A stretch of DNA of 64,000 nt, taken from positions 225,370,001-225,434,000 of the forward strand of contig OZ024742.1 in assembly GCA_964016885.1 (NCBI GenBank), written 5' to 3'. The DNA comes from Eledone cirrhosa (Eukaryota). The notes under the pieces were generated by a model. It was not told where the DNA came from and made no database searches. It saw only the letters and a program-made list of their open reading frames with translations. Of the stretch, positions 1 to 60,166 are shown in pieces; the stretch's first letter is position 1; each line of letters starts with the position of its first letter. Position numbers and translations under genes: made by a program.

Positions 1-2615
1 TACACTGGGGTACATGGTGGGCACGGTTACGGTTCAAGAAATGAAGAAGGAGTGAGACTTCTTGAATTTTGTGATGCGGGTACATTGACTATTTGCAACA
101 CAAACTTCCAGAAACCTGCCAATCACTTAATAACCTACAAATCTGGTGAGCACATAAGCCAGATTGACTTCCTGCTAGTTAGGCAGCGGGACAGGCAGAT
201 AGTGTCTAATACCAAGGCATACTCTGGGGAAGAATGTACCCCACAGCATAGGTTAGTTGTTAGTGATATCTCAGTAAGCAAGAGATGGAATGAGACATAT
301 AGGAAGGTGTGGAGAAGAAAGGTCTGGAAGATAAAAGACCTTTCATTAAAATACAAATTTAGGAAAGCCCTTCAAGATGTATATGACGAAAAAGAAGACG
401 ATTTAGAGACGGATGACATAGATAATAACTGGAATTTCTTACGTGACAACTTGCTGCAGGCTACTGATGAAACCTGTGGCTGGAGCAGAGATCCAACCAG
501 ACAGAGAGTGACCTGGTGGTGGAACAGCACAGTAGATAATGCTATTAGAGACAAAAGACTAGCATGGAAGGCTTGGAAAAAGGGTGGGAGTAGGGAAGAA
601 TATACAGCCACTAAGAGAGAAGCTAGACGTCAGGTGTACTTAGCACGCAGGGAGGCAGAGAGTAGGAGGTTTGCCAATGTTCTGCGACGGGAAGATCAGA
701 GGCGTGCGGTGTTCAACATTGCAAGGCAGTGTGTCAATGCAAATCAGGATGTTGTTGGAGATAAATGTGTCCGGGATGATGCCGGTGTACTTAGTGTCAC
801 GAATGATCAGAAAAAGGAGGCCTGGAAATGTCATTATGAGAGACTGATGAATGTGGAGAACGAATGGGAGAGAGAGAAATTACCCTTGGTAGATCCGACA
901 GAGGGACCAGCTATTGAGATTGACGAATATAGGGTCCAAGAGGCGATTAAGGAAATGAAAAATGGTAAGGCTGCCGGACCATCGAGAATAGTTGCTGAGA
1001 TGCTGAAGGCATCAGGGGACGTAGGCACTAAACTGGTTGCACGCATCATCAATCAGGCTATATATGGTGGTGTCATACCCAAAGACTGGTGCCGCAGTAT
1101 TCTCATAAATTGCTACAAAGGTAAAGGGGATGCTTTGGAGAGGAGCAATTATAGGGGTATAAAACTGATAGATCAGGTTATGAAAGTGGCAGAAAGGATT
1201 TTAGCACAACTAATTAGAGAAAGGGTCAAACTAGATGAGATGCAGTTTGGTTTTGTGCCTGGGAAGAGTACAACAGATGCCCTCTTCTTGGTGAGACAAT
1301 TGCAAGAGAGGTTCTTAGAGAAGAATAAGCCACTATACTTAGCCTTTGTTGACCTAGAGAAGGCCTTTGATAGGGTACCCCGATCTGTCATCTGGTGGTC
1401 CCTAAGGAAGCTAGGTGTTGAGGAATGGCTTGTGAGGACAGTGCAAACTTTGTACAGAGGTACTCTCAGTAAAGTCAGGGTAGGAATGGAGTTTAGTGAG
1501 GAATTCCAGATACAAGTATGAGTACATCAAGGTTCGGTCCTCAGCCCACTCTTGTTTATTATAGTCCTCCAAGCCATAACAGAGGAGTTTAAGACTGGCT
1601 GTCCATGGGAACTTCTCTATGCTGACGATCTGGTTCTTATAGCAGAATCAGTAGAGGAGCTAGAGAATAAATTCTGGCTATGGAAACAGCAGTTGGAAGC
1701 AAGAGGACTGAGAGTGAATCTAGCTAAGACAAAAGTGTTGATGAGTAGAAAAGAGGACAAAACCCTGATTCCATCAGGGAAATGGCCATATTCGATATGC
1801 AGAAAAGGAACTGGCATAAATTCTATAAAATGCACACAATGCACATCCTGGGTACACAAGAGATGTAGCAGGATAGCAGGCAAACTAACAGGTAGGGAGA
1901 AATATGTATGCAGTAGATGTACAGGGAAATTAGACAGTAGAAGTCGCACTGATAGACACATTTTTCAAATGCAAGAGGGCGCTATAGAAGTGGTGGATAG
2001 CTTCTGGTACCTAGGAGATCAGATTAGCATGGGAGGAGGGTGTTCCGAGGCCATAGTATCTAGAATAAGGACGGGTTGGAAGAAGTTTAGGGAGCTGCTT
2101 CCTCTGTTGACGAAAAAGGGCTTCTCCCTGCGTACGAAAGGCCGGTTGTATGATGCCTGTGTGAGGAGCGCGATGCTGCATGGTAGTGAGACATGGGCAG
2201 CAACTGCAGAGGATATGCGACGGCTGGAGAGAAATGAGGCAAGCATGCTCCGTTGGATGTGCAGTGTAAATGTGCGTGAACGACCCAGCATAAATGTGTT
2301 GAGAGAGAAACTGTGTCTGAGAGGGATAGAATGTAGTGTACGGGAGAGGAGACTGAGGTGGTATGGACATGTGATGCGCATGGTGGATGACCGATGGGTG
2401 AAGAAGTGCCAGGAATTGCCAGTTGAAGGAAGACGTGGTAGAGGTAGACCACGAAAAACATGGGCGGAGGTGGTGAGAACAGACCTCAGATCATTGAAGC
2501 TCACGGTGGAGATGACGAGGGACCGTGACGAGTGGAGAGATGCTGTGCTGAATAAGACCCGTCCCACCCTTGCAAGCAGGGAAAAGCGGACGTAAAATGA
2601 TGATGATGATGATGA
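1..2615 (+). mobile_element. RTE-clade LINE, subfamily A: APE C-terminal part, RT, PHD-like finger and C-terminal domain; 5' end outside window; one premature stop at 1519-1521
   Basis: ORFs 52..1521 and 1552..2595 contain SQIDFLL/QHRLVV (APE end), QFGFVPGKSTTDA, FVDLEKAFD, LLYADDL and [14 protein letters not shown] at 1519 corresponds to GGA in the copy at 61402-62626. Ends ACGTAAAA(TGA)n. Confidence 0.95.
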
Positions 2616-5053: not shown

Positions 5054-6018
5054 TGGGGGATTCCTTTCTTTGTTTCTGTGCCTTTCCTTTCTTCTGTCCT
5101 ACGCCATTTTGTTTCTGTGTGTGTGTGTTGTGTGCTCAGTCTGAGCATGCGCCACATCCGGGTGTCTGTGTGTGTTTATGTTCATTTATTTATTTGTTTA
5201 TTTACATGTTACTGGTTGGTTGTTTGTTCTATGTGTGTGTGTGTTTTCATTTTGTCCTTAATTGTAAGTTGTGATGTTGCTGTTCCACTCATATTTTCTA
5301 TTTAATTTTGGTGGTAATTCTTTTATGTTTATTGCCTCTGTAATTTGTCTAAACATTGCGTCTTTTCTGTGTGTAGATTCTATTTTTATTTCTATGTTCT
5401 CTAATTTACCCTTGTGTTCTATTTTAGCATGTTGGTAGAGTACAGATGATTCTTTACTATCTTGAAGGTCTCGCCAGTGTTCATTTATCCGTTCCCCTAC
5501 ACTACGAGCTGTCTCACCTATGTACACTATATTTTTTTTGTCTCTACATTGTCCTTCAGTACATCTTATGCAATACACTACATTTCTAGTTTTACAGTTA
5601 ATATGGGGCTTATTTTACAGGTTATACATTTCTTATCTATACATGAGGGTCTTTGAAAAGGGTATGTCTTGCTAATAAGTATTTTTACGGAGGTACCTGG
5701 TCTTTCTACTATCTTAATATTGAGTTTATGTTTATTTAGGGCCCTTCTAAATTTGTAAGCTAATTCACCTCTAGGGGTTGAATCGATGAACATTACACTC
5801 TGGTATTTATTGCTATCATACCATGAGTTTATTCTATCATCCACCGTATGCAGTTCTCTGGCTACAATCAGAGAGATAAAATCAGAGTGTATAGAGGAGC
5901 CAGAACCAAATGGGAAAAAATGGTAAATAATGACATAAATGGGACCTGCCCCTTGTATAGGAGCAAATTTTGGAATAGAATAGAAAGAACTAGGAACAAG
6001 GCTAATAGAATAAACTCA
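5011..6018 (-). mobile_element. Penelope-like element 3' part: linker, Cys-knuckle, GIY-YIG endonuclease and 3' UTR; frameshift near 5600; 5' segment 5846-6018 inverted
   Basis: CIDKKCITC, VYCIRC..., YIGETARSVGERINEH, LN.K.EW. Upstream motif SGY...PLYRS..W lies on the + strand at 5848-6018. Confidence 0.88.
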
Positions 6019-8924: not shown

Positions 8925-9875
8925 CCTCACTCCAACTCTCACACCTACCCATCCTCGCCTCCCTACCATTCCGCTGACTGCTGCTATGCCCTTCCGACCA
9001 CTGTCGCAACACCAACTGACCACAGCACTTCCACTGCTGACCACTTCCTGTTGCGCGCGCACCCCACATCTCTCCTCTTCCGACCACCGCTTCTTGGATT
9101 ACCTACACGCGTTTTGAATTCCAACCAAAATCTCCATACATCCGTGTAACTTACCACTTTTCAACCATCCTCTAACACCATCACCTATATAACTCACCCA
9201 CACACACATCCCAAAACAAATTTTTTTATCCACACGCCACCCACACCCACAACACGCTTAAACCACACACACGTGCTTCCCACCACATATTTACACCCTC
9301 AGCCCCCTGATTCCTCTCCCCCCACCCCCTATCCACACACGCACAGACCCTCCGACACACAAAAACACCCCCCACACACACCTTCCTGAACATGCAACCC
9401 CGTTCTTCCCCCAACCCTCACTTTCACATACACACACACACACACACACGCACACCTAGCCACACACACCACCTTCAGCCCTCCTCGCTCGGACACCCCG
9501 TCTCCCTCTCCTCACTCCACCCGCCTCCACCTCTACTCACCCCACACCCTTCCACCACCTGTTTACCCCCCTTTTAATTTCAGTTTATTTTGATCATGCC
9601 TTTATTTTTAAATGTTCTCATTCCTTGTATTTTGATCATGCTTTATTTTTATTTATTATTTATTATATTTTTGTCTTTATTTGTTAATTTTTCATTCGCA
9701 CCGTTTCCTTTCGCTATATGTCTCTCCACCACTCCCCTACACACCTTTTGAACTCTTACCTGAAGAAGGGCTTATGCCCGAAACGTCGTCTTCCACCTAC
9801 CCCCCACTCTCCTGAGTGTGAATCTAATAAACATTTGTCGTACTGCCTCTCTGTTCTGTCCCTGTTCAATTTTTT
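8246..9875 (+). mobile_element. Penelope-like element (second lineage): GIY-YIG C-terminus, ~1.3 kb C/A-rich 3' UTR and pLTR with hammerhead motif
   Basis: [25 protein letters not shown]...[14 protein letters not shown]; homologous to the minus-strand copy at 33114-34762; AATAAA at about 9826. Confidence 0.85.
9757..9790 (+). ncRNA. Minimal hammerhead ribozyme motif (PLE-type)
   Basis: CTGAAGA-A-GGGC(ttat)GCCC-GAAA-CG-TC; helix I only about 2 bp. Confidence 0.65.
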
Positions 9876-12278
<2,403 letters not shown>

Positions 12279-12279
12279 A

Positions 12280-12680
12280 CATAGAAAAAGCATATAACGA
12301 TATGTGCTTTTACGATTCTCTAGAGAAGCCGGAAGATAGGTATATATTGCTGATGAGATGTAATAACATCGAAACTAGTCCAATATTCCTGTCTGGCTCT
12401 CTGGAGAATAGAGGAAATGTGTTTCCTTGAAAACCCGTATGACTCTAAAACCCGGTTTGTCTGTTTGGTTACATACAGACTAGCTGGACACTCACAGTAA
12501 AGTGTCCAGTGAAAAACTCAGTACATGTACATATGTATACATGTGTGTATTTATATGCATACTAATATTTCCGTATACATATGTAGATGTACACTTTTAA
12601 CTTAATTGTTTAAGCGTCAGTCATACAAAAGTGAGTTAGAAGCGAAACGAAATTTAATTTCGTTTCGTTATTTGTTTTTA
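12280..12680 (+). mobile_element. Non-coding hammerhead-bearing element (solo pLTR-like), copy 1
   Basis: Colinear with about 25337-25728; ends in the self-complementary AAACGAAATTTAATTTCGTTT. Confidence 0.8.
12344..12386 (+). ncRNA. Minimal type I hammerhead ribozyme, intact core, GUC cleavage triplet
   Basis: ATATTG-CTGATGA-GATGT(aata)ACATC-GAAA-CTAG-TC-CAATAT. Confidence 0.88.
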
Positions 12681-12774
12681 TATTTATATATATATATATA
12701 TATTTATATATATTTATATATATTTATATATATATGTATATATATTTATATATATATGTATATATATTTATATA

Positions 12775-12805
<31 letters not shown>

Positions 12806-13407
12806 ATACATATATGTATATATATATGTGTGTGTATATGTATATACACACACACACATATACCCGGTACACCCTGTAAGCTGGTTGGTGATAGGAAGGG
12901 TATCCAGCCATAGAAAGCTTGCCAAACAAATGTTTGGAAGCACCCTTCACTTGGGCCAAGGACATAATTTCCCTAGTGCTTGTGACACGATAAAATGCAC
13001 TTGGTAGAAGATGGAACCATATGTAAGTGAGATGCAGGGACCCAGCCTGTCTTGGAGGTCAGTATCTCCGCCTCTGTACTGGCTCAGTCTGTGAAGACTT
13101 ATCCAACTCTTGCTAGCAGGGAAAGTGGACATTAAATGATGATGATGATGATGATATATAAATGGGAAAATTAAACTACATGACAGATGTTACACCTAAT
13201 CAAGTACCCACTTCATGTCACAATGTTTATAAAATAAACCAATAAAATAGCACTTGATTATAAACGTGAGTCAACCAAGAGGTGAGAAATATATAACATA
13301 GGTAGTGACATCTAGCATGAAAGCAGTCATAAAATTATGATAAGTGATGAGAGGATTCTTCAATGTCATGACAACCTCTCTAGTGTTGCTAACATATTAA
13401 AACACAC

Positions 13408-14241: not shown

Positions 14242-14612
14242 GTAAAATGGTAGTGCTCGTGCTGTGATAAAATGCACCCAGTACACTCTGTAAAGTTGGG
14301 GTGCTGGTGCCATGATAAAATACACCCAGTATTTTCTCAAAGTAATCGGGTTAGTTTCATTATAATATGCACCTAGAACACTTTGTAAAGTGATAGTGCA
14401 GGTACCACAATAAAATATATCCAGTAAATTCTGTTAAGTGGTAGTGCTGGTGCCACAATAAAATACATCCAGTACACTCTGTAAGGTTGTAGTGTTGCTG
14501 CTACCTTAAAATGCATCCAGGACACTCTGTAAGGTGGTAGTGTTGGCGCCACCTTAAAATGCATCCAGGACATTTTGTAAACTGGTTGTCATTAGGGAGA
14601 ACATCCATAGAA
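14242..14612 (+). repeat. About 7 tandem diverged 48-bp units derived from the SINE/RTE-UTR module
   Basis: Unit approximately GTAAAGTGGTAGTGCTGGTGCCACAATAAAATACATCCAGTACACTCT, followed by a GGTTGTCATTAGGGAGAACATCCA motif. Confidence 0.8.
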
Positions 14613-23047: not shown

Positions 23048-24298
<1,251 letters not shown>

Positions 24299-24424
24299 CA
24301 AATAACGAAACGAAATTAAATTTCGTTTCGTTTCGTTATTTGTTTGTAATGGATGTACATCTTTAACTTAATTATATACATATATATATATATATACATA
24401 TATATACATATATATATATATTTT

Positions 24425-24788: not shown

Positions 24789-24903
<115 letters not shown>

Positions 24904-24936
24904 CATACATATATATATATACATATATATATATAC

Positions 24937-25005
<69 letters not shown>

Positions 25006-25008
25006 AAC

Positions 25009-25063
<55 letters not shown>

Positions 25064-25067
25064 AACA

Positions 25068-25141
<74 letters not shown>

Positions 25142-25142
25142 C

Positions 25143-25175
<33 letters not shown>

Positions 25176-25727
25176 AAAAACAAATAACGAAACAAAATTA
25201 AATTTCGTTTCGTTTGTAACTCACTTTTGTATGACTGACGCTTAAACAATTTCGTTTCGTTATTTGTTTTTATCGTCTCCGTTGAACCGGTACGTACTCA
25301 CACTCTATGCAAATTAGTCTGCCCACTACTAATTTTCATAGAAAAAGCATATAACGATATGTGCTTTTACGATTCTCCAGAAAGGCCGGTAGATAGGTAA
25401 ATATTGCTGATGAGTTGTAACAACAACGAAACTAGTTCAATATTCCTTGTCTGGCTTTCTGCAGAATAGAGGAAAGGTGTTTCCTCAAAAACCAGTGACT
25501 CTAAAAACCGGTTTGTCTGTGTGTTTACATACAGAATAGCTGGCCACTCACAGTAAAGTGACCAGTGAAAGACTTGGTACATCTACATATGTATACGTGT
25601 GTGTATTCATATGCATACTAGTATTTCAGTATACATATGTGGATGTACATTTTTAACTTAATTGTTTAAGCGTCAGTCATACAAAAATGAGTTACAAACG
25701 AAACGAATTCGTTTCGTTATTTGTTTT

Positions 25728-25728
<1 letters not shown>
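25176..25728 (+). mobile_element. Hammerhead-bearing non-coding element, copy 2, with an inverted copy of its 3' end at the 5' side
   Basis: 25176-25250 is the reverse complement of about 25660-25728; body homologous to 12280-12680. Confidence 0.82.
25400..25444 (+). ncRNA. Minimal type I hammerhead ribozyme, GUU triplet
   Basis: AATATTG-CTGATGA-GTTGT(aaca)ACAAC-GAAA-CTAG-TT-CAATATT. Confidence 0.88.
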
Positions 25729-30030
<4,302 letters not shown>

Positions 30031-30194: not shown

Positions 30195-31752
30195 TTATTG
30201 AAAAAAAACCAACAAAGATTTAATATAATAGGTCTGTTTGGGAACAGGTTTTGAATTGACCAATAGAAAGTAGTAAGAGGTCAAGTTGATAGAATAGTAG
30301 TAGTAGAAATTTAATTTAGGGGTAGAGGAATGCAAACTTAAGTTTTGAATGGAAAGAAATCTTTGAATGAAAAGAATACTTTGGGGATGAAAAGAGGTCA
30401 AGCCGGTGAAAGGTACACGAAAATTTGATGTTATTAAAGAATAATGCTAATGTTAAAATCGAAGGAGAATAACATTTTAGGGTAAAGGTGTTAGTGAGAA
30501 ATACCAATCTTATAAATACCAATCTTAGATCTATAACAAGAGATTAAATTAATTGATAGGTATACGTGTAGGGATAAATTTATATTAATTCATATGGATG
30601 TGATAAATAAGATGTTATTAAAGAATGTTGTTTAAAATGAAGGAAAATAAAATTTTGGGATAAATGTAGTAGTGAGAAATACCAATCTTATATAGACTAC
30701 AAGGAATCTAGATTCATAACAGGAAATTAAATTAATTTATATGTATACTTTTAGGTATTAATTTTAGGAAAAGAGAGCTGTAAGAGGGAAATAAAATTAT
30801 GAAGTTCTCTGTAGTAAAGTACTAATTATAGGGAACTAAATTAAATAAACTAATTATTATAATATGTAAAATATAAGTGTAAGGTGTATATTAATTAGGT
30901 TTATAATATTTGAAAGTTCTTCTAATTCTATATTGCAAGATATAATTAATTCTTGTCGCTTATTTAATAGGATATCCTTAGATTTCATTATTTCAAAAAG
31001 TTCCTGGGAGCATAATCTACACTCATATCTGTTATTTTGATAAGGGGTGGCCCTTTTGAGCACACTCCAGGTCAGGTTGTAATCGATATTCTTTTTTCTA
31101 TAATTATTAATTGTTTCAGCCAAGGATGTTGTATTAGCTAATGCGGCATTTTTAAAAATATGTTTGTGGGTATTAAATCTTACTTTAAATTGGTTAGACG
31201 TAGCTCCTATATATGAATAAGTTGAGTCCTTAGTGGTAATTTTACATTTATATACTATGTTATTAATAAGACAATTTCCCTTTAATGGGCAATTTCTTTT
31301 GTTTCTACAGTTACAACCATTCGTGAATATTATATCAGGGGAGTTAGTCAAATTTGGTGTGGAATTTACTCGACTTGTTATATGAGGAGATGGTGGTTTG
31401 TTGCGGTTTATTTTAGTATTATGGTTGGTTTGATGTGTTGGTGGTATATTCGTGTTTTTTTTACACTTATATTTTGTTGTATATTTTTGGTAGTGGAGTA
31501 GGAAAATTTGACAGTTGATCTATTTAAAATTTGATGGTATTTATGGTTTGGCGGGAAATTTTTCTCTAGGATAGTAAAAAAAATTTTAGGGATATTATCT
31601 TTAATTTGTAAATTAAATGGAGCATTATACCAAGTAACTCGTCTATTACGGTTCCGATGTTGTTTTTAATATTTATACGATGTATCAGGATGTTTACTAA
31701 GAGAGTTAGTATTAGTGAATTTATTATATATAGGTTTAGTTAGATTAACTGA
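30195..31752 (-). mobile_element. Penelope-like element (third lineage), 5'-truncated: linker, GIY-YIG and AT-rich 3' UTR with a ~185-bp duplication
   Basis: VTWYNAPFN...NFPPNHKYHQILNRSTVKFSYS; CNCRNKRNCPLKGNC...IVYKC...YIGATSNQFKVRFNTH...CRLC..E...LNKRQE. Confidence 0.88.
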
Positions 31753-39697: not shown

Positions 39698-40643
39698 CTT
39701 TAGCAGTATGGTTTATAGAGGTTATTGAGACACGAGTGACATAATAATGATTTCAACAGCAGAAATTAGAGATGAAATATATGTTTATTTTTGATGTAAC
39801 ACAAACAATGGTGTGGTACAGAGGCTGGTTTCTGGCGTGTGATCAGTCTGCTTTCCAGTGGCTGTCTGTTTTATTTCTCGCGTTCTCAACCAGCGGGAGA
39901 TAACTAGGGTTGTTCTATCAAGAGGCGTGAGGCGTCTTACTACATTGCTATATAATAGCTTTGACATATAATTACAGCCATGCATGTAACTATCATCATC
40001 ATCATTTAACGTCCATGTTTCCACGCTGCATGAGTTAGACGAGTTATCCTGTTGTGAGCAATGCCAGGTCAGATGACCATGTCTTGCTCGTACAGAACTG
40101 ATTTTGGCTTGGTTTCTATAGCTGGATGCCCTTCCTAATGTCAATCTCATTTACAGTGAGGACTGGGTGATTTTTGTCATGACACCTACGCGACCACTTT
40201 ACAGTGTGGACTGGGTGCTTTTTGTTGCAACACCTACATAACTACTTTACAGTGTCGACTGGGTGCTTTTTGCCATGTCACCATCACGACCACTTTACAG
40301 TGTGGGCTGGAGGCTTGGGTATTTTAATCATAATTTGTGAATGATAAGGGCGTTAACTTTACAATCACATGGTTTGAGGTTCAGTAACACTGTCACACTT
40401 TAGGAAAGTGTCTTCTACTATAGCCTCAAGCTGACCAATGTCTTGTAAAAGATATTTGGTTAACAGAAACTTTCTGGAAGCCCATTGTATATATGTATGT
40501 ATACTTACATATATATATATATACTTATTTATGTGTGTATATATATATATATATGCATGTGTGTGTGTGTGCCATCATCTTATGCCAAGTTTTTCCTTCA
40601 GTTTGCTTATGCTCATGCACACTAACCTTGCACATCCATCAAA

Positions 40644-46645: not shown

Positions 46646-48498
46646 GTTGGTCACACTATAACCACACGTATTGTTAACCAGGTAATACTAGGTGTCATAC
46701 CAAAAGATTGGTGCAGTAGCATCATTGTCAACTGCTACAAAGGTAAAGGTGATGCACTCGATAGAGGAAACTATAGAGGTATAAAGCTGATGGACCAGTT
46801 CATGAAGTAACAGAAAGAGTTATAGCACAGTTGATTAGGGACCGGGTGAAACTAGATGAGATGCAATTTGGGTTTGTACCAGGAAGAGGCACCACTGATG
46901 CCCTCTTCCTTGTGAGGCAGTTACAGGAAAAGTACCTAGCTAAAAGTAAGCCACTCTACTTGGCATTTGTCGACCTTGAGAAAGCCTTTGACAGAGTTCC
47001 ACGTGCTGTAATCTGGTGGGCTCTTAGAAAACTAGGAGTAGATGAATGGCTTGTGAAAGCGGTACAAGCCATGTATAGGGGAGCAGTCAGCAAAGTTAGG
47101 ATTAGCAATGAGTATAGCAAGGAATTTAGCGTACAGGTTGGAGTCCACCAGGGCTGTTCTTAGCCCTCTCCTGTTCATCATAGTCCTGCAGGCAATAACG
47201 GAGGAGTTTAAGACTGGATGCCCATGGGAACTCCTGTATGCAGATGACCTCGCACTTATAGCTGAATCTATGGTAGAACTAGAGAATAAATTCCAAACTT
47301 GGAAGCAGGGACTAGAAAGAAAGGGTCTCAAAGTCAACATGACAAAGACTAAGGTCCTTGTAAGTAGACGAGAAAACAGAACCCAGATCCCATCGGGAAA
47401 ATGGCCTTGCTCAGTATGTAGGAAAGGTGTAGGTAGGAACTCCATTCTCTGCCCCAAATGCAAACAATGGGTACACAAGAGATGTAGCGGGATCTCAGGA
47501 AGCTTAATTAAGAATGTAGTCTTCACATGCAGCAGCTGTACTGGGGCAGCAAACAGCCACAGGAAACAAGTACCACCAATCTCTGGGAGGGCTTTGTAGA
47601 GACAGTAGACAGCTTCTGCTACCTAGGTGACCGAATTAGCAGCGGAGGTGGGTGTTCAGAAAGTACAATAACTAGGGTAAGAACGGGATGGAAGAAGTTC
47701 AGGGAACTACTACCACTGCTAGCTGCAAAAGGCTTCTCCCTCAAAATGAAAGGCAGACTGTATGATGCGTGTATCCGAACAGCGATGTTACATGGTAGTG
47801 AGACCTGGGCACTGAAGGTGGAAGACTTACGTAGATTAGAGAGAAACGAAGCCTGCATGCTCCGATGGATGTGTAATAGTAATATACGCGAACGACAAAG
47901 CATAAATGAATTGAGAGAGAGACTGAGCATAAGAGGAATCAAATGCTGTGTGCAGGAGAGGCGGATGCGTTGGTATGGACATGTGATGCGTATGAAGGAT
48001 GACAGCTGCATAAAAAGGTGCAGAGCACTAGAAGTCAATGGAAACCGCGGAGTGGGGAGACCCAAGATGACCTGGGATGAGGTGATAAAAGCCGACCTTA
48101 CCCAATTACACCTCTCAGAGGCGATGACACACGGCCGTGACCTCTGGTGTCGCGCAGTAATACAGAGTACCCAACCTCCCATGGGTACAAGCTGAAGCAT
48201 ATAGACAATAGGCCCCCACACCCTTCCACTGCAAGGTGGTCATGGAGGTGCCATGGCAAAAAAGCACCCAGCCCACACTGTAAAGTGGACGTGTAGGCGC
48301 CATGGAAAAAAGCACCCAGCACTCACTGTAAATGAGGTTGATGTTAGGAAGGGCATCCAGCTGTAGAAATCAAGCCAAAATCAGTTCCTGTATGAGCAAG
48401 GCATGGTCAGCCGACCAGACACTGCCCACAACAGGACAACCCGTCTAACCCATGCTAGCGTGGAAGAACGGACGTAAAACGGTGATGATGATGATGAT
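46646..48498 (+). mobile_element. RTE subfamily B, 5'-truncated and frameshifted
   Basis: ORF pieces 46831..48195 with RT motifs and the PHD-like finger; 3' UTR; (GAT)n tail. Confidence 0.94.
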
Positions 48499-49813: not shown

Positions 49814-49850
49814 TTCTTCTGATGAAGGACTAGCATCCGAAACGTTAAAA
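49814..49850 (+). ncRNA. Minimal hammerhead motif
   Basis: TTCTT-CTGATGA-A-GGA(ctagca)TCC-GAAA-CG-TT-AAAA; weak helix I. Confidence 0.6.
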
Positions 49851-57417: not shown

Positions 57418-60166
57418 TCATCATCATCATCATCAACGTTTAACGTCCGTGTTCCACGCTTGCATGGGTTTGGACGGGGGTAGTCCCACTTGAGGCAAGA
57501 GTGATTGTCTTGCTCGCATAGGACTGTCTGGCAGGTTTTCTACAGTTGGATGCCCTTCCTAACACCAACCACATTTACAGTGTGGGTCTGGGAGGTTTTT
57601 ACCGTGTTGCCTACACGGCCACATTACAGCGTGGACTGTGTGTTTTTTTGTCGTGACACCTACACGATCTCATTTGTTTCGGCCTCGATGGCGCGGCACC
57701 AACATAACTTTACATAGAACGGGGTGGTGTGGATCGGGTGGGGGTGGTGGTGGTGGGACGGGGTGTATTTTGTTAGAGATGCCTACTGGCTGGAGTAGGT
57801 TTTACTATATATTTAGGTAAAGCGGGTCTTCTCTGTTACTGAGTACCGCCAAAGGTCTCGGTCCAGTGACATTGTCTTGGAGAGGTGTAAGTGTGTGATG
57901 TCGGAGTTTATCAGCTCGTCCCAGGTTTTTCTAGGTCTGCCTATTCCGTGACTACCGTCTATCTTTATTGCCCTGCACTTTGTTATACAGCTATCGACTT
58001 TCATGCGCATCACGTGTCCATACCAACGTAGCCTTCTCTCGAGTAAACAACATCTGATCCCTCTTATCTCTAATTTTTTCCTTAGTTCGTTTATGCTTTG
58101 CCGTTCACGTATATTACTGTTACACATCCAGCGGAGCATGCAAGCTTCGTTCCTCTCTAGTCTGCGTATATCCTCTGCACACAATGCCCAGGTCTCACTG
58201 CCATGCAGCATTGCTGTTCGTATGCAGGCATCGTACAACCTGCCTTTCATTTTTAGTGAGAACCCTTTAGCAGCTAATAGTGGTATAAGCTCTCTGAACT
58301 TTTTCCAACCAGTTCTGACTCTAGCTACAGTACTTTCAGAGCACCCTCCCCCACTGCTGATTTTATCGCCCAGGTAACGGAAGCTGTCCACTATTTCTAT
58401 AGAACCCTCTGCGCAATTGAAAGAGCTAGTATTTTGTGGGCACTTGCTGCTACTTATTGCACCAGAGCACCGGCCACATGTAAAATCTATGTTCTTAGTT
58501 AGCTTACCTGTGATCCCACTACATCTTTTATGCACCCATACTTTGCATTTAGGACATAAAATGGAGTTTCTACCTACGCCTTTCCTACACACCGAGCACG
58601 ACCATTTCCCAGAAGGGACCGCCGCCTTGTTTTCTTTCCTACAAACTAGTACTTTGGTCTTAGCCAGGTTAATTTTAAGTCCTTTTGACTCTAGGCCGTG
58701 CTTCCATGTTTGGAATTTCTTCTCTAGCTCGGCCATTGATTCCGCTATGAGTGTCAGGTCGTCTGCGTATAGGAGTTCCCATGGGCAGCCTGTCTTGAAC
58801 TCCTCTGTTATAGCCTGAAGGGCAATAATAAATAGTAGTGGACTGAGAACAGAGCCCTGATGGACGCCAACTTTTACGCTAAACTCTTCACTATATTCGT
58901 TGTTAATTCTAACCTTGCTGACTGTTTCTTTATACATGGCTTGTATAGCCCTCACAAGCCATTCGTCAACGCCTAGTTTTCTAAGAGCCCACCAGATAAT
59001 GGAGCGGGGGACTCTGTCGAAGGCTTTCTCCAAGTCGACAAAAGCTAAGTAGAGGGGTTTACCTTTAGCTAGGTACTTCTCCTGTAGTTGTCGTACTATG
59101 AAAAGAGCGTCTGTGGTACTTTTGCCTGACACAAACCCGAACTACATTTCATCTAGGTCAATTCTCTCTCTGATTAGTTGCGCTATTACTTTTTCCGTGA
59201 CCTTCATGACCTGGTCGATTAATTTAATGCCTCTATAGTTACTCCTATCTAGGGCGTCTCCTTTACCCTTATAACAGTTAACGATGATGCTGCTATGCCA
59301 GTCCTTCGGAACAACCCCATTCTGTACGACTTGGTTAACTATGCGGGTGACCATGGTGTGTCCCACCGTGCCAGATGCCTTCAGCATCTCAGCAACTATT
59401 TCCGAAGGCCCAGCCGCCTTACCAGTCTTCATATCCTTGATTGCCTTACTTATTATACTCCCCTCGACTAACACTGCTGGTCCCTCTATTGGGTCGATAT
59501 GGGGGAGACTGCCTTTCTCCCAATTATTCTCCTCATTTAGTAGCCTTTCATAGTGACACTTCCAAGCTACCTTCTTGCTACCTTCTTATCAGCGTCGGTG
59601 ATGGCAAGTGTGCCATCGTCGTTTAGTACACACTTCTCCCCGACAATATCACGGTTTTCCTTGACGCATTGCCTAGCAATCCTGAACACCTCACGTTTTT
59701 GGTCATCGCGTTGTAGAACATGCTTGAACTTTCTTTCCTCAGCTTCCCTTCTTGCTAAGTACACTTGTCTCCTAGCTTCTCTCCTGGCCACTTGATAGTC
59801 CTCTCTACTTCCCCCATCCCGCCATACTTTCCAAGCCTGCTTTTTGGCCTTAATTGACCCCTCCACCTTACTGTTCCACCACCATGTTACTCTCCTCCTG
59901 CCTACAGGCCTGCTCCAGCCACAGACTTCGTCTGTCGCCAACAGCAGGTTTGCTTTCAGAAATTCCCACTCTCCCTCTATATTGTCAGACTCTAAATGTT
60001 CTTCCTTACTGTCGAAAGCATCAAGTAATATGCTTTGAAATTTATTCCTGGCTGTGGGGTCCTTTAGCTTCCATATTTTCCTCCTGAGGATAGTCCTCTT
60101 CTGTTGTCGAGTACGTCTCGTCCTGACTATGAGGTCGCTAATTATCAGTCTATGTTGGGAGGTGCA
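57418..60166 (-). mobile_element. RTE subfamily C, longest copy (truncated at the APE C-terminus; small duplication frameshift near 59575; stop at 59142)
   Basis: ORFs 59567-60166, 59142..59474 and 57813..59132. Confidence 0.95.

What the first reader, a model, noticed from the sequence alone, without database searches (positions are those of the whole stretch)
12314..12410. Hammerhead ribozyme pair with compensatory base changes and a long extended helix I
Seen: copies at 12344-12386 and 25400-25444 keep CTGATGA, GAAA and palindromic CTAG. Helix II changes from GATGT/ACATC to GTTGT/ACAAC (A-U to U-A). Helix I extends about 25 bp further with bulges (ATTCTCTAGAGAAGCCGGA.../TCTGGCTCTCTGGAGAAT versus ATTCTCCAGAAAGGCCGG.../TCTGGCTTTCTGCAGAAT), apparently also covarying. 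Known: minimal type I hammerheads with a palindromic stem III occur in Penelope pLTRs and retrozymes and can cleave as dimers. Inference: a selected self-cleaving RNA in a mobile non-coding unit.
Basis: partly seen in the sequence, partly recalled or inferred. Interest (0 to 1): 0.8.

Follow-up and report, generated by a model that had tools for sequence, protein, structure and literature searches.

The report
Hammerhead retrozyme riding Penelope-like retrotransposons
The two hammerhead motifs are real and are two separate copies of a roughly 470-base non-coding repeat whose hammerhead core occurs over 30,000 times in this animal genome; the RNA is predicted to cut itself, and the ends of its insertions show the pattern left by Penelope-like retrotransposons, which therefore likely copy it around.

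Summary
Both motifs are canonical (not minimal) type I hammerheads: 6-bp helix I, one-pair helix III, palindromic CUAG loop; predicted cuts follow 12380 (GUC) and 25437 (GUU). They are not a functional pair but independent insertions of two subfamilies of a 466-471-bp non-coding tandem unit: 9,448 exact cores, plus 23,965 of sister families 62-66% identical. Across families the catalytic core is invariant, helices covary (10 of 20 pairs) and the whole unit keeps a similar branched fold. This is a non-LTR retrozyme, a known class. The useful addition is insertion anatomy: 3' ends face outward, stop at two fixed sites 74 nt apart, one of each in 31 of 32 insertions, with 12-13-bp duplications in (TA)n. 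Neptune-type Penelope-like elements of the same genome end the same way. That is direct anatomical support for the proposed Penelope-driven mobilisation, with reverse transcription starting internally rather than at the ribozyme cut. Cleavage, expression and the partner enzyme are untested. The scan noted similar insertion patterns for tRNA-bearing units in other genomes, not this sequence.

The parts
12275..12681 (+). Copy A: 5'-truncated monomer of subfamily A (unit positions 366-471 then 1-301, counted from the predicted cut), ending at the long 3' site; no inverted arm; one hammerhead only
   Evidence: (L001)
12344..12386 (+). Canonical type I hammerhead, GUC triplet, predicted cut after 12380
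12314..12410 (+). Extended helix I with the internal loop of canonical hammerheads and the closing stem of the branched unit fold
12608..12681 (+). 74-nt 'tail' between the short (about 12604-12607) and long (12681) 3' end sites; inferred reverse-transcription start sites
   Evidence: PMC11167929
25176..25251 (-). Inverted arm of copy B: just the tail (unit 224-299), 3' end facing outward
25248..25730 (+). Copy B: slightly more than one unit of subfamily B, ending at the long site; one hammerhead only
   Evidence: L031
25401..25443 (+). Canonical type I hammerhead, GUU triplet, predicted cut after 25437
25307..25314 (+). ATGCAAAT, invariant in all five subfamily representatives; octamer-like (label recalled); absent from the truncated copy A
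24294..24372 (.). 79-bp mini insertion of the same family: inverted long end on the left, short end on the right, no ribozyme
9878..12276 (.). (TA)n array, left flank of copy A (right flank 12679-12846)
25728..30030 (.). (TA)n array, right flank of copy B (left flank 24789-25175)

Best explanation
This is a high-copy non-coding tandem repeat with a canonical hammerhead in each unit (a non-LTR retrozyme) that is likely copied into TA microsatellites by the reverse transcriptase-endonuclease of a Penelope-like element, probably of the Neptune type. Shown: unit, copy number, covariation, insertion anatomy. Inferred steps: (1) tandem donors are transcribed, possibly from an internal octamer-containing promoter; (2) hammerheads cut only when two units pair their ACUAGU palindromes, releasing monomers that would be ligated into branched circles; (3) a dimeric Penelope protein binds the folded RNA, nicks both strands of AT-rich DNA about 12 bp apart and primes two cDNAs, one at each of two internal sites (unit 227 and 301); (4) the two 5'-truncated cDNAs are joined head to head, giving outward 3' ends, a tail on one side and a 12-13-bp duplication. 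Insertion would not depend on ribozyme cleavage. The two window copies hold one hammerhead each and are likely dead-end daughters.
For: 9,448 + 23,965 exact cores, controls 0; best hits 98-100% identical on many chromosomes. Tandem period 466-471 bp, up to 31 units in one insertion. Core invariant while N7 (U/C) and N17 (C/U/A) vary; 93.9% of cells paired, 10 of 20 pairs with two-sided change, slid controls at most 45.5%. Circular folds z -9.5 to -18 against 25 shuffles; A versus D at 62% identity: 13 compensatory, 8 one-sided, 54 same, 16 broken of 91 pairs with letters in both; hammerhead strand folds 20-37 kcal/mol better than the other strand, shuffles 4-14 +/- 5-7. Of 50 delimited insertions, 36 have 3' ends outward on both sides; 31 of the 32 with two canonical ends have one short and one long end (about 8e-9 if chosen independently at 50:50, my arithmetic); 43 of 50 have a TA flank; 12-13-bp duplications at 10 sites with informative flanks. 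RT plus GIY-YIG ORFs exist in the genome, end in (TA)n at two sites 40-66 nt apart, and 3 of 4 inverted pairs show one of each. PMC11167929 shows in vitro that a Penelope-like protein nicks both strands of AT-rich DNA, starts at two internal RNA sites that define the tail, and does not need hammerhead cleavage. Monomer helix III costs about +6 kcal/mol; the palindrome duplex gives -6.2.
Against: No cleavage, expression or circle was shown. No autonomous element sharing sequence with the unit was found in 75 loci around GIY-YIG hits (a small part of 10,595 candidates). Window copy B itself is the one long/long exception, and 14 of 50 insertions show no inverted arm by my script. One inverted Penelope pair (L102) ends at the same site on both sides. 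About two thirds of the A/B/C cores are not GUC (3,164 of 9,448 are), D/E have a U.U at the base of helix II, and Li et al. 2026 saw cleavage in only 1 of 9 predicted Xenopus dimers. The covariation rests on two or three independent lineages, and family E was found by a pattern that presupposes the core. The loci are mostly best hits, so young and complete copies are over-represented.
Confidence: 0.8

Rival explanations
1. Same element and enzyme, but the template is a monomeric circular RNA copied by rolling-circle reverse transcription, as the retrozyme model proposes, rather than an uncleaved linear multimer.
For: Insertions are circularly permuted relative to the cut and read through it; a 31-unit array is bounded by one short and one long end; the circular fold is stable and conserved; circles are shown for coral, mussel and axolotl retrozymes (PMC7229834, passages).
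Against: In the 30 complete units of that array the same variants recur at non-adjacent units (one in 9 units, another in 8, partly with period 7). Repeated copying of one monomer circle should give identical units with private errors. This fits a heterogeneous multimeric template or later local duplication; I cannot separate those two. In PMC11167929 unprocessed RNA was the main substrate.
Confidence: 0.3
2. The unit is only the terminal repeat (pLTR) of an autonomous Penelope-like element not yet found, and the copies are its truncated 3' ends.
For: The insertion anatomy is that of Penelope elements (PMC8557442 passages); Xenopus retrozymes are homologous to pLTRs (bioRxiv 10.64898/2026.07.22.740005).
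Against: Units join head to tail without any ORF for up to 31 copies. None of 75 loci around GIY-YIG hits has the unit as its pLTR; the two with matches (L121, L122) are separate insertions in TA beyond the element's end. The pLTRs seen carry different, minimal hammerheads.
Confidence: 0.1
3. A satellite spread by DNA-level recombination, with a vestigial hammerhead and hairpins that are merely DNA palindromes.
For: Long arrays with interspersed variants; many short palindromes; GUU in the most numerous A/B/C subfamilies.
Against: Dispersed, near-identical insertions with fixed ends and target duplications; invariant core with covarying helices at 62% identity; strand asymmetry of folding.
Confidence: 0.05

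Closest known systems
Non-LTR retrozymes of animals (Cervera and de la Pena 2020, PMC7229834; Li, Clavereau and Pollet 2026, bioRxiv 10.64898/2026.07.22.740005)
   Same: Non-coding tandem unit, one canonical type I hammerhead per unit, GC 35-36%, stable branched fold, thousands of copies, monomers to long arrays, co-occurring with Penelope-like elements.
   Different: Unit 420-550 bp, at or above the 150-450 bp of the 2020 paper but within the 51-972 bp of the preprint. Helix III is the weak one-pair, palindromic-tetraloop type described for axolotl HHR_Amex1. The passages and sections I read do not describe inverted outward ends, a tail or two fixed termini for retrozymes.
EN+ Penelope-like elements (Neptune, Poseidon; Craig et al. 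2021 PMC8557442; Frangieh et al. 2024 PMC11167929)
   Same: Tandem plus inverted 5'-truncated copies, tail at one end, AT-rich or (TA)n targets, hammerhead upstream of the 3' ends.
   Different: No ORF; canonical rather than minimal hammerhead; tail 74 nt (about 60 in family D) against 30-40 bp in print and 40-66 nt in this genome's Neptune-type elements; no sequence homology to the pLTRs examined.
Newt satellite 2
   Same: Tandem repeat with dimer-dependent hammerhead; reported snRNA-type internal promoter (as cited in PMC2220036, passage); here an invariant ATGCAAAT.
   Different: Promoter function is untested here; the primary paper was not held, so that its promoter has an octamer is recalled.
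Rfam Hammerhead_HH9 (RF02275)
   Same: Best ribozyme model for both copies; core and helix lengths align.
   Different: 34-39 bits, below the gathering score of 52; helix III shorter.

Membership tests
Canonical type I hammerhead | Core CUGANGA ... GAAA ... UH | tested here: met
   N17 is C, U or A by subfamily
Canonical type I hammerhead | 6-bp helix I, about 4-bp helix II, 1-2-bp helix III with palindromic loop, conserved loop nucleotides | tested here: met
   GGUA, UAAYA and UUC stretches conserved; definition from PMC4209133
Canonical type I hammerhead | Self-cleavage | not testable with these tools
   needs an in vitro assay
Minimal PLE hammerhead | Lacks helix III and tertiary loops; lies in the pLTR of an ORF-bearing element | tested here: not met
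   extended helix I with internal loop and a tetraloop are present; no ORF-bearing element with this unit in 75 loci
Non-LTR retrozyme | Short tandem repeats, one type I hammerhead per unit | tested here: met
   period 466-471 bp, up to 31 units; the two window copies are monomers
Non-LTR retrozyme | Non-coding, GC under 50%, no LTR organisation | tested here: met
   GC 0.35-0.36; no ORF of 120 aa inside either copy other than frames running through TA repeats; PBS/PPT not searched separately
Non-LTR retrozyme | Target duplications longer than 4 bp when present | tested here: met
   12-13 bp at 10 informative sites of 50
Non-LTR retrozyme | Stable self-paired fold of the unit | tested here: met
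   z -9.5 to -18; conserved across families; prediction only
Non-LTR retrozyme | Expressed as linear and circular RNA | not testable with these tools
   no RNA holder listed; contigs cannot show it
Autonomous Penelope-like element | ORF with RT and GIY-YIG | tested here: not met
   none in the unit or arrays
Penelope-type insertion | Inverted 5'-truncated copy, tail at one end, AT-rich target | tested here: met
   36 of 50 outward on both sides; 31 of 32 short+long; 43 of 50 TA flank
Penelope-type insertion | Identified partner protein that acts on this RNA | tested here: inconclusive
   Neptune-type ORFs with the same end pattern exist but share no detectable sequence

The most novel reading that the evidence does not exclude
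A lineage of viroid-like, 420-550-nt RNA parasites with their own internal promoter, conserved over its whole fold at 62% identity, recruits a Neptune-type enzyme by shape alone (no shared sequence with any pLTR), and every insertion is made by obligate twin priming, one enzyme subunit at each of two fixed sites. The ribozyme serves an RNA-level life (circle formation) apart from insertion, and is being tuned down (GUC to GUU) in the most numerous subfamilies to leave more uncleaved template.
Probability: 0.3. Interest if true: 0.72.

Novelty: new member of a known kind. Interest (0 to 1): 0.48.

Why it matters
Which enzyme moves animal retrozymes, and whether the circle is the template, is stated as open in the papers read: Penelope elements are proposed from co-occurrence (PMC7229834, PMC7761336) and pLTR phylogeny (2026 preprint). 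This young, abundant family carries the Penelope insertion signature itself and names exact predicted start sites (unit 227 and 301), so the published in vitro assay (PMC11167929) can test it directly. The 31 of 32 one-short-one-long rule is a sharp constraint on the Penelope mechanism. At over 33,000 hammerhead cores (about 0.5% of the genome if each stands for one unit, my estimate) it also gives natural GUC, GUU and GUA variants of one ribozyme for comparison. The ribozyme itself is ordinary.

Tried and rejected
Whole-window Rfam and repeat searches were swamped by TA microsatellites; their miRNA hits are artefacts. Expression: no RNA holder listed. X1 and X2 have summed depths of 10^5-10^6 and look like DNA of the same species; X4 and X5 (other organisms, kind unknown, depth 11 and 2) each hold one 497-499-nt contig, X4's closing on itself, which fits a tandem repeat as well as a circle, so it is not used as evidence. 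All three other organisms show GUC and the A-type helix II there, a hint that GUU is derived. X4 and X6 also hold low-depth pieces of D/E. Partner search: no pLTR homologous to the unit in 75 loci. A 9-nt match between one Neptune long end and the unit's short end was set aside as possible chance. A search for further families with another tetraloop was not carried out, so more divergent families remain unsurveyed; Rfam RF00163 found only an unrelated family F (18 matches). The row labelled E was a mislabelled A variant and is not used; the true E unit is. A functional pairing of the two window copies was rejected: different subfamilies (89% identical), separate ends; at 9,448 cores in 3 Gb about 0.2 are expected per 64 kb, so some windows with two are expected. 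Not held: Coats et al. 1994 and Lunse et al. 2017. The reduced rate of GUU is recalled; PMC3138052 (passages) only lists it as a cleavable triplet. Searches for prior description; none listed this family or the end pattern for retrozymes, but most subscription papers, Repbase and the preprint's supplements were not visible.

Full report
Observation. Both motifs are present as described. Copy A has the core at 12350-12380 with a GUC triplet; copy B at 25407-25437 with GUU. Rfam HH9 matches both below its cut-off. The architecture is a 6-bp helix I followed by an internal loop and further stems, a 5-bp helix II, and a single A-U pair capped by palindromic CUAG. This is the canonical type defined in PMC4209133 (passages) and resembles axolotl HHR_Amex1 (PMC7229834, passages). 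In a monomer, closing helix III costs about 6 kcal/mol and the predicted minimum pairs core bases wrongly; two copies can pair ACUAGU at -6.2 kcal/mol. Dimer dependence is therefore predicted, not shown. In the extension the two copies differ by one compensatory change, one wobble repair and one break that is private to copy B.

The unit. The window lies in a 3.0-Gb genome. The homology between the two sites covers about 400 bp. Searches return 1,813 and 987 candidates, 40 scored each, the best 98-100% identical on many contigs. The exact core pattern occurs 9,448 times, control 0; 3,164 are GUC. The unit is 466-471 bp and occurs as monomers, short tandems and long arrays. Three subfamilies appear: A (GUC), B and C (both GUU), 92-97% identical. 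A BLAST hit beside a GIY-YIG locus revealed families D and E, 62-66% identical to A, with 23,965 exact cores.

Selection on RNA. I aligned 9 hand-picked variants of the 40 distinct ones, leaving out mostly single-copy mutants. The catalytic residues, the CUAG loop and the loop stretches GGUA, UAAYA and UUC are conserved; N7 and N17 vary. Of 20 pairs, 10 change on both sides and 93.9% of cells pair, against at most 45.5% for slid structures. Helix I is 100% paired with 3 of 6 pairs covarying; the first pair of helix II is unpaired in the 4 D/E rows. These rows represent two or three lineages, so the shuffle counts are not probabilities. Whole units fold as branched circles with z of -10.9 (A), -18.1 (B), -14.9 (C) and -9.5 (D) against 25 shuffles. 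With the variable central hairpin left out, A versus D gives 13 compensatory, 8 one-sided, 54 unchanged and 16 broken pairs among 91 with letters in both, of 106 predicted. The hammerhead strand folds better than its complement by more than shuffles give (15 shuffles each). ATGCAAATT is invariant in all five representatives while its pairing partner varies, a hint of a sequence-read promoter element; newt satellite 2 is cited as having an snRNA-type promoter (PMC2220036, passage).

Insertion anatomy. From loci L001-L069, after removing overlaps and elements running off a locus, 50 insertions were delimited. In 36 both outer ends are 3' ends, joined internally at truncated 5' ends; 14 showed one defined end. 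Ends cluster at unit positions about 227 and 301, 74 nt apart and far from the ribozyme cut. Of 32 insertions with two canonical ends, 31 have one of each; window copy B is the exception. 43 of 50 have a TA flank. At 10 sites with informative flanks the duplication is 12-13 bp (15 at L003, counting overlap with the element's ends); pure TA flanks are uninformative. Most of these loci are best hits, so the sample favours young copies. Craig et al. describe this arrangement for Penelope-like elements, with the tail often at one end only and microsatellite bias (PMC8557442, abstract and passages). Frangieh et al. show that the tail lies between two internal reverse-transcription start sites, that both strands of AT-rich DNA are nicked and extended, that the protein is predicted to be a dimer, and that hammerhead cleavage is not needed (PMC11167929, parts 1-2 of 4 read). 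In this genome GIY-YIG has 10,595 candidates. Three of four ORFs scanned match both RT and GIY-YIG, the fourth RT only. Their cysteine-rich linker suggests Neptune (by eye; no tree was built). Three families end in TA at two sites 40-66 nt apart; inverted pairs L122, L123 and L124 have one of each, L102 does not. None of 75 such loci has the unit as its pLTR.

Template. A 31-unit array is bounded by one short and one long end in TA. Its 30 complete units share variants at non-adjacent positions, which does not fit simple rolling-circle copying of one monomer circle and fits a heterogeneous multimer or later local duplication.

Mechanism. Shown: unit, numbers, covariation, ends. Inferred: transcription of tandem donors, dimer-dependent cleavage and circle formation (by analogy with PMC7229834), and twin target-primed reverse transcription by a Penelope-like dimer from two internal sites. 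Each window copy has one hammerhead, and copy A lacks the octamer-like motif, so neither could release a unit-length RNA alone.

Comparison and novelty. Every testable feature of non-LTR retrozymes is met; expression and cleavage could not be tested. The class is described, and its dependence on Penelope elements is proposed in PMC7229834 and PMC7761336 (passages) and argued phylogenetically in the 2026 preprint (parts 1-3 of 5 read). My searches listed no description of this family or of the two-site, inverted end pattern in a retrozyme; supplements and repeat databases were not seen. The scan's earlier notes hold nothing on this sequence or genome but report similar insertion patterns for tRNA-bearing units elsewhere; these are unchecked and not used as support. 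Verdict: a new member of a known kind with unusually clear evidence on how it moves; interest 0.48.

Noticed in passing
L111, L112, L116, L120, L122, L123 and others (pLTRs downstream of GIY-YIG ORFs): Neptune-type pLTRs carry minimal hammerheads with the U3-A8 core variant and a palindromic CCGG loop; one family has GCAA for GAAA; another (L114) has U17 and a U.U pair at the base of helix II. U3-A8 is known from a Schistosoma element (PMC4209133).
   Followed up: partly
L121:6890-7400, L128-L157, L055:370-860: Sister families D (468-553 bp, with an internal TA hairpin of variable length) and E (420 bp): 23,965 exact cores, GUA triplet, U.U at the base of helix II, same two kinds of end (262 and 321 in D; short+long in L146, L147, L150).
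   Followed up: yes
L158-L175: Unrelated hammerhead family F (Rfam RF00163 above cut-off), single or inverted copies ending in TA; not seen in tandem; probably another Penelope-associated end.
   Followed up: partly
G000:C1:5738000-5752800 (L070-L090, L126, L127): 31-unit, about 14.5-kb array that is one insertion with a short and a long end; variants recur at non-adjacent units, partly with period 7.
   Followed up: yes
window 9760-9800 (+), 49819-49850 (+), 48598 (-) and 48723 (+), 11519 (+): Further minimal or decayed hammerhead-like motifs, one inverted pair, several ending next to TA arrays; likely ends of other Penelope-like elements.
   Followed up: no
window 30857-31519 (-) and 5578-6015 (-): Frames that read like C-terminal or endonuclease fragments of Penelope-like proteins (by eye).
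   Followed up: no
window 1522-2595, 46777-48195, 57813-59585 and others: Many fragments of one abundant LINE-type reverse transcriptase family (RTE-like by eye).
   Followed up: no
window 14380-14586, 40150-40310, 48227-48332: 48-bp tandem repeats of related sequence.
   Followed up: no
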